A stretch of 64,000 nt of DNA. It comes from Escherichia coli. Its GTDB lineage: Bacteria; Pseudomonadota; Gammaproteobacteria; Enterobacterales; Enterobacteriaceae. Position numbers: made by a program. Positions 1 through 6,000 of this stretch are shown in pieces; the stretch's first letter is position 1, and each line of letters opens with the position of its first letter. Location of the stretch: assembly GCF_016026235.1 (NCBI RefSeq), contig NZ_CP065613.1. One strand, written 5' to 3'.

Positions 1-3000
1 CAGAACACGGGCCTGATTGATGCGGTTCCCAGCGTAAATATCGGAAAAGCGTTCGAGAAGCCTCAGAAAAAGAACATGCCGAGCATCCGGCCTGATCAAC
101 TGCCTCAACTGATGCAGACGATGCGAACAGCAAACATCAGCCAATCAACACGATGCCTGTTCATGTGGCAGCTTCTTACTATTACCCGTCCTGCCGAAGC
201 CGCTGAAGCTCGATGGGATGAGATCGATTTTGAAGCTAAAGAATGGAAAATTCCTGCAGCTCGAATGAAGATGAACCGGGACCATACGGTTCCATTGTCT
301 GATGGAGCTCTCGCTATTCTGGCAATGATGAAGTCACTCAGTGGTGGCCGAGAATTTATCTTTCCTAGTCGAATCAAACCAACCCAGCCGATGAATAGCC
401 AAACAGTGAATGCAGCACTCAAACGTGCTGGATTGGGAGGCGTTCTCGTTTCTCATGGCTTGCGTTCTATCGCCAGTACCGCCCTTAATGAACAAGGCTT
501 CCCACCTGATGTTATTGAAGCGGCGCTGGCTCATGTGGACAAAAATGAAGTACGTCGCGCTTACAATCGCAGCGATTATCTTGAGCAGAGACGCCCGATG
601 ATGCAGTGGTGGGCAAACCTTATAAAAGCGGCAGATAGTATTCCTACCGTTTGTAACGAAGTAGCAGGTCTTAGATTGGTTGGGTAGTGGATTTAAAATC
701 TCAAGTGATTATCCTTAGAAAAGATAATCACTTGAGATAATTGAAATTTTTATTGGATTAAGGCAAAACCATGCTACATTAATTAAGATAGTTTAAAATA
801 GCATTTATATAGATATATGTTACACTTTCTAAAAAAAATCGCGAAAAAGGAAATATGATAACAATCATATTTTAGAAGTTGACATAATACATACCAAATT
901 TATCGTGCTATGAACACTACATTAACCTTTTATTTTTTCATAACAAGCAAGCAAAAATGATGAATACAATAGAAATTCACCGCAAACAACCAAACATAAC
1001 TCTAGCCCAGCACATACAAAATAAAAGACTACAACTTGGAAAAGAAATCTCCAAAAAATACAAGATTTATCTCGACTTAAGGTTCTGGTTTTTTTTAGAG
1101 ATATTGAGCTTGGGAATAATAACGATCGAGACTTAATTAATCTCCTACAAAAAATAAAGTACTTGGTTGATAATGGAAAGGTAGTTTGCCCTATATCTGC
1201 TACTGTTTTTTTAGAACTAATGAAACAGAACGATATCGAAACAAGGATGGCCACAGCCAAAATTATTGATCATCTGAGTTTTGGAGTTACACTTATAGCT
1301 AGTCATGAGAGAGTCAAACAAGAATTATGTAATGCTACGTATTCGATTTTGGGAGCTAAGGACAGCATTCCAATTGATCAATTAGTATGGACCAAACTAA
1401 GTTATATTTTCGGCGATTACCATCCATACGATACATCTTTCGATGCAGCTGAAGAACTGATCATTCAGAAATCTTTTTTTGATCATATGTGGGATATTTC
1501 ACTCGTTGAAATGATGAACCATATCAACTATGAAAGCTGGGAACAATTTGATTGGCAGAAAACAACAGAAATGCTTAACTTGGCTAATAAAGAGCATACC
1601 AATGAGCTTAGAAGCTATCAACACGCATATCGTATTGAGTTCGACGGAGTGTTAAGCCTTTTCAACGAGCAATTAATCCAGATATTCAAAGAGGCTTACA
1701 AGGCCGGATATAACAATGATGAAATTAATAATAAGAAAAAATCAAAAAATGAAAAACTTAAACAATTTGCACAATTAGTCCGTACTTTACATATTGGTGC
1801 CTCTTGTCATGCTGCAGTAAGATGGGATCAGAAACGCCAGCTCAATGGTAATGATCTTTTAGATTTTCATCATGCCGAAGCAGCTTTAGGATATTGTGAT
1901 TTATTTTTGACTGAAAAACCTTTGAAAGTTCTAGTGAGTCAAGAACATTTGGGATTAAGAGAATTATTCTCATGCTCTGTTGAGTCATCAGCTAGTGAAG
2001 GGCTCAAGATACTTAACATGTGTAAAATATAAAAATTAAGAATATTTCATATTACTAAATCTATAAACTTTAGAGGTCATTTTCATAATTGAAGCTGACC
2101 TCTCACCCGCTCGATAAGTCTCACACAACTATGACTAAGATTGGCAAGTATTATCCCCCCCAATTATCATCTATTACAAAAATAGCTAATCATCTATTTT
2201 AAAATCAAAAATCCTTAAAATATCATTAAATGATGCTTCACATTGCCCCACAAGGCTAGTGAAGTGTGCACGTAGATTTTCATGATCGGTACGCGCTTCT
2301 AATATCGCTTTCTTCTTTTTTTCTGTAGAAGCATGTCCGCGTACTTCGGTTCGTAGAGCATGCAGTTTTTGCATAGGCTGAACTAACATTTTCGCTTCAT
2401 CTACTGTTGCACTTTTAGCAATAAGAGCTTCTTGTAGTATGCGCAAGGATCCCCATTTGGGTTCAATGATTCGGCCCTCATATTTAGCAATTTCACTCAG
2501 TGGCTTTGGTAAAAAGCCCTCAACTAAATACTGATCAAGCGCAAGGATTTCATCACCCCACTCTTTGATTGAATCTGTTGCAGGATACTGAACAGCGCCA
2601 CTCAATACTGTACCCCGTGGCTTCCACCAGGTGGGAGGATTCTTGTCCATTAGCGAAATTTTGTGTTTGAGTGCCAACAATGGTTCATTGGACAGATACC
2701 ATTCCCCAACAATATCCGTCTGAAATGCACGCTTAGAAATTGTTCCTTTTGGCCATTCATTGAAGGCTTGCCAATAGAGCTGTTCTTCATAAGGTAAATG
2801 AGCCAAATCACCAATGTATACATGAACTTGCCCGGCCTCATTAATATCATAGGATTTTAAATACCAAGCATTTCGACAAGCAATACTTCTTTCATCTAAA
2901 GTATATTTTTCTGGATCCGCCTTGAAACGATGTAACACTTCTGCTCTAAAAAAGGCAGGTGAAACTTCCCACGGTAATTTATTTTCTTGAAAATAGTTAG

Positions 3001-6000
3001 ATAGTGAGTCTGGTCCGCAAGATGTTTCAACATTGCAGCTATTTTTACGATCGTATATTTTAAAGGTTGCGTATTTCCTTTTAGATGGATTATCTTCATC
3101 CTTCCATGCTTTTACCAGACCGCGCACAGTTACTTGAGGGCGAATGATCATTACACCATTACAGTAACTGGCTTCCCCGTTAATACCACCATGATAAAAA
3201 AGACTCCCTTCATCTTTAGTATATCTGTTGATATTCCCCCAGCCAGCAAAATTACCCCATCTGACACGTGTAAAATCAAACTTTAAAACAAGACATGTTT
3301 TGGATAAAGCCATGAATGTATCTAAATCCTTTCTCTTAATAGTAACTATATCCAGATAGTTAAAAGGAGGTGAAATATTTTTGTTAATTATCCTGATTAC
3401 ATCTTCAATATCACCCCGTTCATCGAGACGACAATATGCATTTCTTTCTGGCAAGTAATATAACCCAAGGCTGTGCACAAGTTTCTGACTTAATTCGATA
3501 GGTGCACGGCCTTCTTCAACGCCATGAAACCTACGACGATAAATTAATGCCTCTCCCCCTTTGAACACCCCATCTAAAGGTGGCTCAAGATAAATACGAT
3601 GTCCTTGACCTCCACCCCATGACTTTTGAATCTTCCAACAATACTCAACATCCATACGCATATTCTGCAATGCCCATCTATCTGCTGTAGTAACATTTTT
3701 CTCTAGAGCTAGCGCGCCATGAATTAGGACACTATTTCCAATCGCGTAGATAACCACTTCATCATTTTGAGCATTTTCTTTCAGAAATTTAATTGACCTT
3801 TCAGCCTCTATTAACCAAGCGGCATCATCATTCTGTGGCTTTTCCGAAATAGCATGAAGCTCTGTGAATTTAAATTGGCTCATGAGTAATATTCATATCC
3901 TTTTACTTTATCTATAACTGACATCACTTATAAGTTATAAGTTATAAGTTATAAGTTATAAGTTATAAGTTATAAGTTCCCCTTATGAATTAAGAAATAA
4001 CATCAAACAAATACCACCCCTCTCGTAATTTTTTCACTGAATCTGCCATAACTTCCATTACGATGGAATCTACGTACTTGCCAAGAGTAAAATGAGCGCA
4101 ATGACCCGGTATTTGTTATGTTTCTCTCGCGATATGTAGTGCCTCGCGATATGAGGGCTGTCCCACAATTACCTTGAATTTGCCCTAGCCTAGCTGGCCC
4201 CCATCCAGCATTCCAATAATAAAGCTCTGCGACGACTAGGTCCTTTAACTTAACCTGTAGACGCCCATCATGCGGGATGACTTCAAGAGAATTTTCTATG
4301 CCTGGCATCGTCGGTAAAAATAACCGGGATGGATACAAATCATGTTGTAGGTATCCTATCCGACCAAAATCGAGCATTCCCGCCAATGGCCAAGCCATAC
4401 AAGTTTTATTCACCAGTTGTTCAAAAGTTGGTGGAGTTATTAAGGTTGTTGTACTGAGTGGATCCGGAGCTTGGCTGGAAAGCATTTGTTCACGTGTCCA
4501 GAACGATTCAATATGGGATGTCAACGAGTCCGCTCCTTCCTTATCACTGCTTACAGTTTGTGACCACCGAACAATCGACAACTCTACGCACTGTTCCATT
4601 GACATTGAAATGGGCGAGCTAAATGCAATTAGCTCGTCTCCTGGGTTTGCCGCCTCTACTTGAGCAAAGAAAGTTCGCAATGAAGCCTCGATCGCCTTAC
4701 TATCACTTTTGAATTCAGTCGATACTGAGAGCCATTCGGGACGATAAGGTCGAAGAAAAGCCAAAGTTGGATGGATAGGCAACGCCAAGAGAGAATGTTG
4801 CTCGGTCAACTCCATTGGTATCCTCCAGATGTGTCTAGCCACAGCTAACGTGCGAAGATAAGCGGAAATTACGCGAAGGGCTGTTCGAGAGGAAAAATGA
4901 GGGGCAAAGCCCTCTCCCAAGGGCCGAATGAAATATCCTGCATCCCCTTGGTACGGTGCATTTGGATATGCCGTCCGGTTTTTTGTCCATTCGAAGGCCA
5001 TTTGTCGAATAAATGGACAGCGGGTAAAAGTTTCCAACTTGCTAATGGTTATATGGAAGATTCTTGGCAAATCCGTACCTTGAACACTATCAAAGTCATC
5101 GGGAATGATGAAGTCTTCTGGAGCTAGTTCCAAATCAGTATTCATGAGCAGAATCGATAACCCAAAATCTTTCATCAACAATGATGAAAGTGGTGAGGGT
5201 AGAAGAATATTCTCTGCCAACAAAGTCGTAGGAAAGTAGTTAAACTCTTTAATTGCCATCCAGAAAATACATAATACTTCGACAACCTCGGCTTCAAGTT
5301 TGCGCGAGCGCAGCAATTGAAGCAGCAATGATTCGGTTTCAGCTTTCGTCTCAGGCTCTCCCAGTCGAGCGGCAAGCTCCTGGATAGTCCACCACCGAGC
5401 AGACGTAGCAGGCCATCCAAGACGGGCAATAAGAATGCGAAGATCGTTCATTTCACTTCCTGGGCGATTGGCTCGAGCAGTTTTGACATCCAGCAAGGTG
5501 GTTCTAAGGGCAAGGTCCGAGTATCCTCAATCACACAATTAACCATCGTCTCTGTGAACTTTACAGCTTCATCAATGCGATTTTGCTTAACGTAGAAATA
5601 GACCATAACTTCCGATGGAGCTAGGCGTGACGACACTGGCTCATCAAACATGTTGTAGGTTGTTACGGCCACAAATTCATCACAGCGCTGCGGATAATTT
5701 TGGACAACCAGGTCGAGTCTTTTGCAAGTCACATCCACGTTCTCCATGTAACCAATCCATCCCCCATTACGGATCTGTGCATGAACAAGATACTTCCAAG
5801 CTGCAGTTAAGCCACTTAATCTACGTTTTGTTTGAAATGCAAACTCGGAAAGATGTAGAGCTTCCCTCATCCATTTGTTGTTTTTTGCAAATAAAATCTT
5901 ATCCAGTTCGACGAGTAAATTTCGCCCCTGCTTTTGGCTTTCCCAGTGCTGATACCAAGTACGGAGAAGTTTTGGACGCTCTTTGTAATATGGTTCCAGA

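What the first reader, a model, noticed from the sequence alone, without database searches (positions are those of the whole stretch)
1163..3883. Convergent pair of AT-rich orphan genes (289 aa and 565 aa) between the integrase and the coupled operon
Both genes lack recognisable motifs. Their GC content looks lower than that of the adjacent three-gene operon, suggesting separate acquisition. The 565-aa gene is on the same strand as, and downstream of, the operon and may be a fourth component or an independent module; the 289-aa gene converges on it. A 59-codon ORF (957-1136) in another frame precedes the 289-aa gene and the latter's start codon is unclear, so a frameshifted longer gene is possible.
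Basis: partly seen in the sequence, partly recalled or inferred. Interest (0 to 1): 0.5.

Follow-up and report, generated by a model that had tools for sequence, protein, structure and literature searches.

The report
Broken PIN gene beside HEPN gene
The two "orphan" genes are members of two large, widespread but untested families of predicted RNA-cutting defence proteins; one of them (a PIN-fold nuclease) is broken here by a one-base deletion, the other (a HEPN-fold nuclease) is intact and is not an obligate part of the neighbouring operon.

Summary
The ORFs exist as described (289 aa, 1163-2032 +; 565 aa, 2186-3883 -), they converge, and their GC (34.4% and 39.3%) is below that of the operon (45.6-45.9%). 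They are not orphans. The 59-codon ORF (957-1136) plus the 289-codon ORF are one 358-codon gene broken by loss of a single A in the Ile45 codon, between positions 1088 and 1089. Intact 358-aa alleles sit in the same island in a few E. coli and in Salmonella, and homologues elsewhere are 358-365 aa. The modelled protein is a PIN-fold nuclease split by a helical insert. The frameshift cuts off strand 1 with the invariant Asp40, so this copy is a pseudogene. The 565-aa gene is intact. It belongs to a family found in at least 196 species and has beta-rich N-terminal and middle domains plus a C-terminal HEPN domain (R511-x5-H517), the ApeA-NTD1/HEPN architecture. The two families co-occur only in this enterobacterial island. 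The three-gene NACHT operon occurs without the 565-aa gene, and that gene usually occurs without the operon, though the 1260-aa family recurs beside it. Both are most likely stand-alone defence RNases; this function is inferred, not shown. A hypervariable 7-nt repeat lies upstream of the 565-aa gene.

The parts
879..906 (+). Promoter-like site (TTGACA-16 nt-TATCGT) about 50 nt upstream of the true start codon of the PIN-like gene at 957.
   Evidence: The consensus scan gives 10 of 12 matches. This is a consensus match only, and the number of such sites in the region does not exceed the shuffled expectation.
957..2032 (+). Whole split-PIN nuclease gene (358 codons when intact), here a pseudogene broken by a 1-bp deletion.
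957..1136 (+). 5' fragment, the 59-codon ORF. Codons 1-44 are the authentic N-terminus, including strand 1 and the invariant Asp40 (1074-1076). The rest is out-of-frame read-through to a stop.
1089..1096 (+). Frameshift site: a T8 run created by loss of the A of the Ile45 codon (between 1088 and 1089). Intact alleles read TGG ATT TTT TTT AGA or TGG ATA TTT TTT AGA; the window reads TGG TTTTTTTT AGA.
   Evidence: One search compares the window with L021-L024. All 7 other E. coli copies read, and the window, carry the T8 form.
1163..2032 (+). 3' fragment, the 289-codon ORF. It carries the remaining PIN residues E87 (1214-1216), D300/D303 (1853-1855, 1862-1864) and E320 (1913-1915) and the helical insert, but lacks strand 1 and Asp40.
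   Evidence: RefSeq annotates it as a 261- or 289-aa hypothetical protein.
2072..2103 (.). Imperfect hairpin (14-nt arms, 4-nt loop) in the middle of the 153-nt gap between the convergent genes. It may be a shared transcript end.
   Evidence: It has no T-run, and the terminator scan did not call it, so this role is weakly supported.
2186..3883 (-). Intact gene for a 565-aa protein with a beta-rich N-terminal region (residues ~1-290), a highly conserved middle domain (~288-400) and a C-terminal helical HEPN domain (~400-565).
2333..2353 (-). Predicted HEPN catalytic motif R511-x5-H517. The R codon is 2351-2353 and the H codon is 2333-2335.
   Evidence: R511 is invariant and H517 is conserved in at least 90% of 82 family members. 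Coordinates were checked.
3928..3978 (.). Perfect 7-nt tandem repeat (TTATAAG x7.3; AACTTAT on the gene's strand). It ends 44 nt upstream of the ATG of the 565-aa gene, inside the 119-nt gap that separates it from the operon.
   Evidence: Copy number is 2, 3, 4, 4, 6, 7, 8 or 9 in otherwise >=99% identical E. coli copies.

Best explanation
The region holds two unrelated, separately mobile one-gene nuclease modules. They sit at the integrase-proximal end of a genomic island inserted next to ssrA.

(1) 957-2032 (+) encodes a 358-aa 'split-PIN' protein.
- A VapC-like PIN fold is built from the N-terminal ~135 residues and the C-terminal ~65 residues. A helical insert of about 150 residues separates the two parts.
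- The predicted active site is D40, E87, D300/D303 and E320.
- In this window the gene is dead. Loss of one A in codon 45 shifts the frame, so strand 1 and Asp40 end up in a 59-codon ORF, and the rest can only be made as an N-terminally truncated 289-aa (or shorter) product.

(2) 2186-3883 (-) encodes an intact 565-aa protein.
- Its beta-rich N-terminal and middle domains most likely sense a signal.
- Its C-terminal HEPN domain (R511-x5-H517) most likely cuts RNA.
- This is the ApeA-NTD1 + HEPN(Apea) architecture.

By analogy with tested one-protein PIN and HEPN defence systems, both are most likely auto-inhibited RNases that switch on during phage infection.

Shown here: the gene structures, the frameshift, the folds, residue conservation, and genomic independence from each other and from the operon.
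Inferred, not shown: RNase activity, the defence role and the activating signal.
For: Frameshift:
- Homologues of the 289-aa ORF are 358-365 aa, and their N-termini match the 59-aa ORF.
- Adding one base restores a 358-aa protein.
- Intact alleles in the same island (E. coli L021/L022, Salmonella L023-L025) differ at the site only by the extra A.
- The window and all 7 other E. coli copies read carry the deletion.

PIN fold:
- D40, E87 and D303 are invariant, and D300 and E320 are >=90% conserved, in 67 sequences. They sit where PIN catalytic residues sit: the end of strand 1, the helix after strand 2, and the helix and strand of the C-terminal half.

HEPN fold:
- The model has pLDDT 93.8.
- Full-length AFDB matches include proteins named ApeA-NTD or Apea-like HEPN.
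- R511 is invariant and H517 near-invariant.
- The architecture matches the ApeA-NTD1 description in PMC3710099: about 300 aa, mostly beta strands, conserved aromatic residues, fused to HEPN.

Independence of the two genes:
- Only 1 of 80 species loci with a 565-family gene also has a 358-family gene, and that locus is the same island.
- None of 5 other 358-family loci has a 565 relative.

Operon:
- It occurs without the 565-aa gene in L106 and L107.
- Only 2 of the 80 565-family loci carry the NACHT and 497-aa genes.

Defence context:
- 358-family genes lie next to Gabija-like genes inside a conjugative element, and next to CBASS-like genes.
- 565-family genes lie next to integrases and toxin-antitoxin genes.
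- DefensePredictor lists the truncated E. coli product WP_227262727.1 as a predicted novel defence gene (PMC13092281, supplementary file 3).
- ApeA HEPN proteins are ligand-activated defence RNases (bioRxiv 10.64898/2026.01.26.701840).
Against: - No experiment on either family was found.
- Neither protein matches any PADLOC, Pfam or NCBIfam model. This includes the Pfam and PADLOC ApeA models.
- The 358-aa family shows no significant profile similarity to DS-3 (hhalign probability 6.5%) or to a PIN_12 neighbour.
- The characterised ApeA proteins are mostly alpha-helical in their N-terminal parts, unlike the 565-aa protein.
- Both genes are often inactivated in this island lineage. That fits costly defence genes but also fits dispensable cargo.
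- The 1260-aa family recurs beside 565-family genes, so complete autonomy is not proven.
Confidence: 0.7

Rival explanations
1. The 565-aa gene is a functional fourth component of the upstream operon (1260 aa, 1475-aa NACHT, 497 aa), co-transcribed with it and needed for, or dependent on, its activity.
For: - It has the same strand and order in every copy of this island examined: E. coli, Salmonella, Photorhabdus, Serratia and Lonsdalea.
- The gap to the operon is only 119 nt, and no terminator-like site was called in it.
- Relatives of the 1260-aa protein lie directly next to 565-family genes in two further arrangements: an 8-kb cassette in L039/L041/L061, and L032.
Against: - The three-gene operon is conserved with abutting genes but without any 565 relative in L106 and in a Tn7 cargo region, L107.
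- 74 of 80 species loci with a 565-family gene have no 1260 relative within 10 kb, and 78 of 80 lack the NACHT and 497-aa genes.
- In Salmonella the 565-aa gene is fragmented while the operon is mostly intact: all three genes are intact in L023 and L025, but the NACHT gene is split in L024.
- The operon genes overlap or abut, whereas the 565-aa gene is set apart by a gap that holds a variable repeat, and GC drops from about 46% to 39%.
Confidence: 0.15
2. The frameshifted PIN gene is still expressed full length, by -1 ribosomal frameshifting or transcriptional slippage on the T8 run. In frame, that run reads U_UUU_UUA. The result would be low, tolerable levels of a toxic nuclease.
For: - A -1 slip on the in-frame heptamer would give W-F-F-F-R-D..., which restores the family reading frame (read directly from the sequence).
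- The T8 allele is the common one in E. coli, carried by the window and all 7 other copies read.
- The gene carries no other lesion in the window.
Against: - Intact alleles in the same island have ATTTTTTTT or ATATTTTTT, so the T8 run is simply the product of a 1-bp deletion.
- Three distant intact homologues have no homopolymer run at this site.
- The downstream hairpin is no more stable than shuffled sequence (z = -0.92).
- The same gene has been knocked out independently by a W179* nonsense codon in Photorhabdus and by IS1 in an E. coli strain, so loss of function is recurrent.
Confidence: 0.05
3. The two convergent genes form one two-gene system, for example a PIN-HEPN toxin pair, a toxin-antitoxin-like pair, or a pair regulating each other by antisense transcription.
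For: They are adjacent and convergent in every copy of this island, and both are predicted RNases.
Against: - The two families co-occur in only 1 of 80 species loci, which is the same island, and in none of the other contexts examined.
- Within the island either gene can be dead while the other is intact: E. coli has PIN dead and HEPN intact, and Salmonella has PIN intact and HEPN fragmented.
Confidence: 0.03
4. Neither ORF is a functional gene; both are decaying AT-rich cargo of an old island.
For: - The PIN gene is indeed a pseudogene here.
- IS1 insertions and fragmentation hit both genes in several strains and genera.
Against: - The 565-aa ORF keeps every residue conserved at >=90% except Y320F.
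- Its relatives keep a constant length of about 565-572 aa down to about 27% identity across many phyla.
Confidence: 0.05

Closest known systems
DS-3 (working name PIN8, WP_022645725.1, 340 aa), a validated one-protein E. coli anti-phage system from the DefensePredictor study (PMC13092281)
   Same: - It is a single protein with no partner antitoxin.
- Its PIN nuclease fold is split between the N- and C-termini by a long helical insert.
- Both share a local ...K/R-x-L-x-x-N-D-x-x-D-F... motif at the start of the C-terminal PIN half.
- The same study's model flags the truncated E. coli product of this gene as a predicted defence gene.
   Different: - There is no significant sequence or profile similarity (hhalign probability 6.5%).
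- DS-3 starts directly with strand 1 (catalytic D7, E42), whereas the 358-aa family has a 34-residue N-terminal helical extension (D40, E87).
- The 358-aa family has not been tested, and the copy in this window is frameshifted.
VapC-type PIN toxins (for example M. tuberculosis VapC21, PDB 5sv2; Shigella VapC, 6sd6)
   Same: - Conserved acidic residues sit at the canonical positions.
   Different: - VapC proteins are about 130-140 aa and are paired with a VapB antitoxin.
- Here the PIN core is interrupted by a helical insert of about 150 residues, and no conserved adjacent small gene was seen in the four non-island contexts examined.
- Sequence identity is only 9-15%.
ApeA-NTD1 + HEPN(Apea) proteins, as defined by sequence analysis in Anantharaman et al. 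2013 (PMC3710099)
   Same: - The architecture is the same: an N-terminal region of about 300 aa, mostly beta strands with many conserved aromatic residues, fused to a C-terminal HEPN domain with an Rx4-6H motif.
- AFDB proteins with full-length structural matches (TM about 0.8-0.9, 27-37% identity) carry the names 'ApeA N-terminal domain-containing' or 'Apea-like HEPN domain-containing'.
   Different: - No Pfam family at all, and so neither ApeA model, matches the window protein at E <= 10 or any of 82 aligned relatives at E <= 0.1.
- The PADLOC ApeA model does not match either.
- It is therefore at best a divergent branch.
Experimentally characterised ApeA defence proteins (Ec1-Ec4ApeA; bioRxiv 10.64898/2026.01.26.701840 and 10.64898/2026.03.20.713152)
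   Same: - Each is a single protein of about 560-600 aa with a C-terminal HEPN RNase whose arginine is essential.
- A non-catalytic pocket senses an infection signal, after which tRNA anticodon loops or phage RNA are cut.
- This is the best working model for how the 565-aa protein acts.
   Different: - Those proteins are predominantly alpha-helical (catenin-like N domain, PafA-like middle domain), whereas the 565-aa protein is beta-rich before the HEPN domain.
- Oligomeric state, ligand and RNA target are unknown for the 565-aa family.

Membership tests
PIN-domain nuclease superfamily (VapC-like) | Rossmann-like alpha/beta/alpha fold with a central parallel sheet, recognisable by structure comparison | tested here: met
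   [not shown]
PIN-domain nuclease superfamily (VapC-like) | Three or four conserved acidic residues at the end of strand 1, in the helix after strand 2 and in the C-terminal half | tested here: met
   D40, E87 and D303 are invariant, and D300 and E320 are conserved in >=90% of 67 sequences, at the expected secondary-structure positions. In the window copy the frameshift separates D40 from the rest.
PIN-domain nuclease superfamily (VapC-like) | Match to a PIN sequence profile (Pfam clan CL0280) | tested here: not met
   No Pfam hit for the reconstructed protein or for any of the 67 aligned members.
PIN-domain nuclease superfamily (VapC-like) | Metal-dependent nuclease activity | not testable with these tools
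   Needs biochemistry on an intact allele.
Type II VapBC toxin-antitoxin system | Small antitoxin gene directly upstream in the same operon | tested here: not met
   No conserved small partner gene was seen in the island or in L009, L011 and L012, and the neighbours differ between loci.
DS-3 (split-PIN one-protein defence system, PMC13092281) | Sequence homology to WP_022645725.1 | tested here: not met
   hhalign probability is 6.5%, and only a 17-residue motif aligns.
DS-3 (split-PIN one-protein defence system, PMC13092281) | One-protein architecture with the PIN fold split between the N- and C-termini | tested here: met
   The DS-3 description is.
HEPN superfamily | Four-helix up-and-down bundle recognisable by structure comparison | tested here: met
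   [not shown]
HEPN superfamily | Conserved Rx4-6H motif | tested here: met
   R511-T-E-V-R-G-H517: R511 is invariant and H517 is conserved in >=90% of 82 sequences.
HEPN superfamily | RNase activity | not testable with these tools
   Needs biochemistry.
ApeA (Pfam HEPN_Apea / ApeA_NTD1; PADLOC ApeA) | Match to the family's sequence models | tested here: not met
   No Pfam hit even at E <= 10 for the window protein, none among 82 relatives at E <= 0.1, and no PADLOC hit.
ApeA (Pfam HEPN_Apea / ApeA_NTD1; PADLOC ApeA) | Architecture: mostly-beta N-terminal domain of about 300 aa with conserved aromatic residues, fused to HEPN | tested here: met
   Model and conserved aromatic residues. The family definition is in PMC3710099.
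ApeA (Pfam HEPN_Apea / ApeA_NTD1; PADLOC ApeA) | Same fold as the characterised Ec1-Ec4ApeA (alpha-helical N and middle domains) | tested here: inconclusive
   The paper describes predominantly helical monomers, whereas the 565-aa model is beta-rich before the HEPN domain. No ApeA chain appeared among the PDB hits, so no direct structural comparison could be made.
Component of the NACHT three-gene operon | Conserved co-occurrence with the 1260-aa, 1475-aa and ~480-aa genes | tested here: not met
   The operon lacks the 565-aa gene in L106 and L107. The NACHT and 497-aa genes are present in only 2 of 80 loci with a 565-family gene.

The most novel reading that the evidence does not exclude
The 565-aa protein represents a widespread, untested class of one-protein HEPN immune RNases (found in at least 196 species, from Proteobacteria to Chloroflexi, Planctomycetes and a DPANN archaeon). 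Its beta-rich sensor would differ from that of characterised ApeA. It would optionally team up with large nuclease-like partners (the 1260-aa family, or a ~780-aa SEC-C-motif protein). In E. coli its expression would be set strain by strain by a hypervariable 7-nt repeat just upstream, making it a phase-variable immune gene.
Probability: 0.12. Interest if true: 0.6.

Novelty: new member of a known kind. Interest (0 to 1): 0.33.

Why it matters
- Two RefSeq 'hypothetical proteins' become testable candidates: a split-PIN protein and a beta-rich HEPN protein. Each has named catalytic residues and a known intact allele to clone.
- RefSeq currently annotates a truncated 261- or 289-aa product of what is a frameshifted pseudogene in most E. 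coli copies.
- The 565-aa family is large, conserved in length across phyla, and missing from Pfam, PADLOC and NCBIfam. A profile for it would improve annotation of defence islands.
- Its recurrent but optional pairing with the 1260-aa and SEC-C-motif proteins, and the variable repeat upstream, are concrete leads. None of this is conceptually new, because PIN and HEPN one-protein defence nucleases are already established.

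Tried and rejected
- Sequence-profile searches gave nothing for either protein: Pfam, NCBIfam, PADLOC, PHROGs and PDB sequences.
- Programmed frameshifting was rejected. The slippery run is absent from intact alleles and from distant homologues, and there is no significant downstream structure.
- Sequencing error or phase variation at the T-run was rejected. The window and all 7 other E. coli copies read have T8, and the lesion is loss of the flanking A, not a change in T number.
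- The 275-aa gene next to the 565 homologue in L002 is not related to the 289-aa ORF.
- Homology of the 358-aa family to a neighbouring PIN_12 protein or to DS-3 is not significant.
- The N-terminus of the 565-aa protein shows no profile similarity to the Cap4-like nuclease domain of the 1475-aa NACHT protein, so this did not explain the SeAvs3 match.
- L019 first looked like an operon-free context. It proved to be the same island with an internal deletion, so it was dropped as independent evidence.
- Rfam found no RNA family in 600-4300.
- The RNA fold across the heptamer repeat is not unusual (z = -0.97).
- Both families are rare in viral contigs, with 2 and 5 loci among 2.9 million, so they are not typical phage genes.

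Full report
**Setting.** The window begins inside an integrase gene (76-687). In E. coli complete genomes the same sequence lies directly after ssrA and intA. The stretch 700-4100 is present at >=99% identity in 13 of 5426 complete E. coli genomes, always on the chromosome. The region is therefore the integrase-proximal end of a rare genomic island inserted at the tmRNA gene.

**Check of the observation.**
- The ORFs are as described: 957-1136 (+, 59 aa), 1163-2032 (+, 289 aa, TTG start) and 2186-3883 (-, 565 aa).
- Three tightly packed minus-strand genes follow: 497 aa (482 aa as annotated in RefSeq), 1475 aa and 1260 aa.
- GC is 34.4% for 957-2032 and 39.3% for the 565-aa gene. The operon genes are 45.6-45.9% and the whole window is 47.9%.
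- Neither protein matches Pfam, NCBIfam, PADLOC or PHROGs.
- The description is therefore accurate, but 'orphan' is not.

**The 289-aa ORF is the 3' part of a broken 358-codon gene.**
- A database search found about 300 relatives. Apart from the E. coli cluster itself, nearly all are 358-365 aa long.
- Their N-termini match the 59-aa ORF up to '...YLDLRFW'.
- Adding one base in the T-run at 1089-1096 gives a continuous 358-aa protein.
- The 90%-identity cluster of the 289-aa product also holds 358-aa members from E. coli (MCN2439038.1) and Salmonella enterica.
- These lie in the same island, next to the same integrase, 565-aa gene and operon.
- At the break point they read TGG ATT TTT TTT AGA (E. 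coli) or TGG ATA TTT TTT AGA (Salmonella). The window reads TGG TTTTTTTT AGA. The lesion is therefore loss of the A of the Ile45 codon, between positions 1088 and 1089.
- The window and all 7 other E. coli copies read carry the same lesion. It is inherited, not a sequencing error and not a variable tract.
- Three distant intact homologues have no homopolymer run at this site.
- The hairpin downstream is no better than shuffled sequence (z = -0.92). Programmed frameshifting therefore has no comparative support, although the T8 run does read U_UUU_UUA in frame.
- The gene has also been knocked out independently: by a W179* nonsense codon in Photorhabdus tasmaniensis and by IS1 in E. coli MB57.

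**What the 358-aa protein is.**
- An alignment of 67 family members gave an AlphaFold model with pLDDT 92 and pTM 0.90.
- The invariant or near-invariant acidic residues D40, E87, D300/D303 and E320 lie where PIN catalytic residues lie. These positions are the end of strand 1, the helix after strand 2, and the helix and strand of the C-terminal half.
- The fold is split. Residues ~35-135 and ~295-345 form the PIN core, and ~140-290 form a helical insert.
- The frameshift leaves strand 1 and Asp40 in the 59-codon ORF, so the 289-aa product cannot form the active site.
- Outside the island, family members sit beside a Gabija-like gene pair and a PIN_12 gene inside a conjugative element (L009). 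They also sit beside CBASS-like genes (L011) and in another variable region (L012). The immediate neighbours differ each time, which argues for a one-gene module.
- The DefensePredictor study (PMC13092281) lists the truncated E. coli product WP_227262727.1 as a predicted novel defence gene.
- I retrieved the DS-3 sequence and found no significant profile similarity, apart from a short shared motif at the start of the C-terminal PIN half. DS-3 is an analogue, not a demonstrated relative.

**What the 565-aa protein is.**
- It has more than 990 close relatives at 60-95% identity with nearly constant length. It has 1515 representatives of 50%-identity clusters at E <= 0.001.
- A scan of one genome per species found relatives in 196 species. 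These include Proteobacteria, Chlorobi, Chloroflexi, Acidobacteria, Planctomycetes, Cyanobacteria and a Woesearchaeote.
- The window protein keeps every residue conserved at >=90% except Y320F. The gene is therefore intact.
- The model (pLDDT 93.8, pTM 0.87) has a beta-rich region up to about residue 290. A very conserved, aromatic-rich middle region follows (288-400), then a helical C-terminal domain.
- R511 is invariant and H517 nearly so, giving an R-x5-H HEPN motif.
- Foldseek against AFDB50 gave full-length matches (TM up to 0.96). [quoted passage not shown]
- This fits the ApeA-NTD1 description of Anantharaman et al. 2013: about 300 aa, mostly beta strands, conserved aromatic residues, fused to HEPN.
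- It does not fit the experimentally studied ApeA proteins, which are mainly helical.
- Those proteins remain the best working model. They are single HEPN proteins that cut tRNA anticodon loops or phage RNA once a separate pocket senses an infection signal.

**Is the 565-aa gene part of the operon?**
- For: in all copies of this island it follows the operon on the same strand.
- Against: the operon genes overlap or abut, while the 565-aa gene is set apart by 119 nt and a drop in GC.
- Against: the operon (1260-like, NACHT, ~480 aa) is conserved without any 565 relative in a conjugative-element context (L106) and as Tn7 cargo in Providencia (L107).
- Against: among 80 species loci with a 565-family gene, the NACHT and 497-aa genes occur in only two, both the same island.
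- Against: in Salmonella the 565-aa gene is fragmented while the operon is mostly intact (all three genes are intact in L023 and L025; the NACHT gene is split in L024).
- It is therefore not an obligate fourth component.
- One caveat is interesting. Relatives of the 1260-aa protein lie next to 565-family genes in six of the 80 loci, in three arrangements:
  - this island;
  - an 8-kb cassette [1260-like][565-like][777 aa] shared at about 85% DNA identity by Halopseudomonas, Comamonas and a Burkholderiaceae genome;
  - a Rubrivivax contig with a 36%-identical relative downstream.
- A 777-826-aa protein with a SEC-C motif lies directly downstream in seven loci. Two of these are only 25-30% identical to the rest.
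- A ~590-aa protein lies adjacent in six loci. It looks like a remote paralogue with an aligned R...H motif.
- Most loci have none of these partners.

**Are the two convergent genes a pair?** No.
- The families co-occur only in this island: 1 of 80 loci, and none of the other contexts examined.
- Within the island either gene can be dead while the other is intact.

**Other features.**
- A perfect 7-nt repeat (3928-3978) lies 44 nt upstream of the 565-aa start codon. It varies from 2 to 9 copies among E. coli copies that are otherwise >=99% identical. The RNA fold across it is unremarkable, and its effect on expression is unknown.
- A promoter-like site at 879-906 precedes the true start of the PIN gene.
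- An imperfect hairpin at 2072-2103 lies between the convergent genes.
- Rfam finds nothing in the region.

**Verdict.** The region holds two independent one-gene nuclease modules of the kind common in defence islands. One is a frameshifted split-PIN gene. The other is an intact gene of the ApeA-NTD1/HEPN type. The anatomy is well supported; the defence function and RNase activity are inferred. This adds new members to known kinds of system and is of moderate interest. Its main value is as a source of annotation fixes and testable candidates.

Noticed in passing
window 3928-3978: A perfect heptanucleotide tandem repeat (TTATAAG x7.3) lies just upstream of the 565-aa gene. Copy number is 2, 3, 4, 4, 6, 7, 8 or 9 in E. 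coli copies that are otherwise >=99% identical. No array of two or more perfect copies was found in the Salmonella or Lonsdalea copies. It could be a contingency (phase-variation) tract or a neutral variable repeat.
   Followed up: partly
window 9880-13662; L039 6145-9945; L061 6107-9937; L041 6709-9942; L032 10452-14258: The 1260-aa first protein of the operon has a C-terminal ...DFDVFAYW...VTVECKY... stretch that looks like a PD-(D/E)xK nuclease motif. Its family recurs beside 565-family genes in three different arrangements. The three-gene operon also occurs on its own (L106, L107).
   Followed up: partly
L039 11838-14171; L055 2147-4597; L105 11599-14079; also L034, L038, L041, L061: A 777-826-aa protein lies directly next to 565-family genes, within 6-160 nt on the same strand, in 7 of 80 species loci. 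It is downstream in six and upstream in L034. It has a C-terminal SEC-C motif and a ...VEAKAG... nuclease-like motif. Two versions are only 25-30% identical to the others. It may be an optional partner.
   Followed up: partly
L047 11727-13496; also L051, L080, L085, L093, L095: A ~590-aa protein sits next to 565-family genes in 6 of 80 loci. It shows a weak profile match over the HEPN region with an aligned R...H motif (hhalign E 5e-4), so it is probably a remote paralogue.
   Followed up: partly
L016, L017, L018 (E. coli); L023-L025 (Salmonella); L049 (Serratia); L061; L021/L022: The island decays piecemeal. IS1 sits in the PIN gene (L018) and in or at the 565-aa gene (L016, L017). The 565-aa gene is fragmented in Salmonella and split in Serratia and Comamonas. 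IS21 interrupts the NACHT gene in the E. coli strains that keep the intact PIN allele. IS600 cuts into the operon in strain FDAARGOS_943.
   Followed up: partly
L019 5037-7908: An 864-aa 'unknown' protein upstream of a 77%-identical 565 homologue is the first 858 residues of a 1260-aa homologue, followed by a remnant of the 497-aa gene. The locus is the same island with an internal deletion that removed the NACHT gene.
   Followed up: yes
[not shown]
   Followed up: no
window 5448-9875: The 1475-aa operon protein combines an N-terminal Cap4/LmuA-like endonuclease region (weak PADLOC hits over residues 8-145) with a NACHT/STAND NTPase. It gives only a weak, partial match to the PADLOC Avs1b model (E 4e-11).
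   Followed up: no
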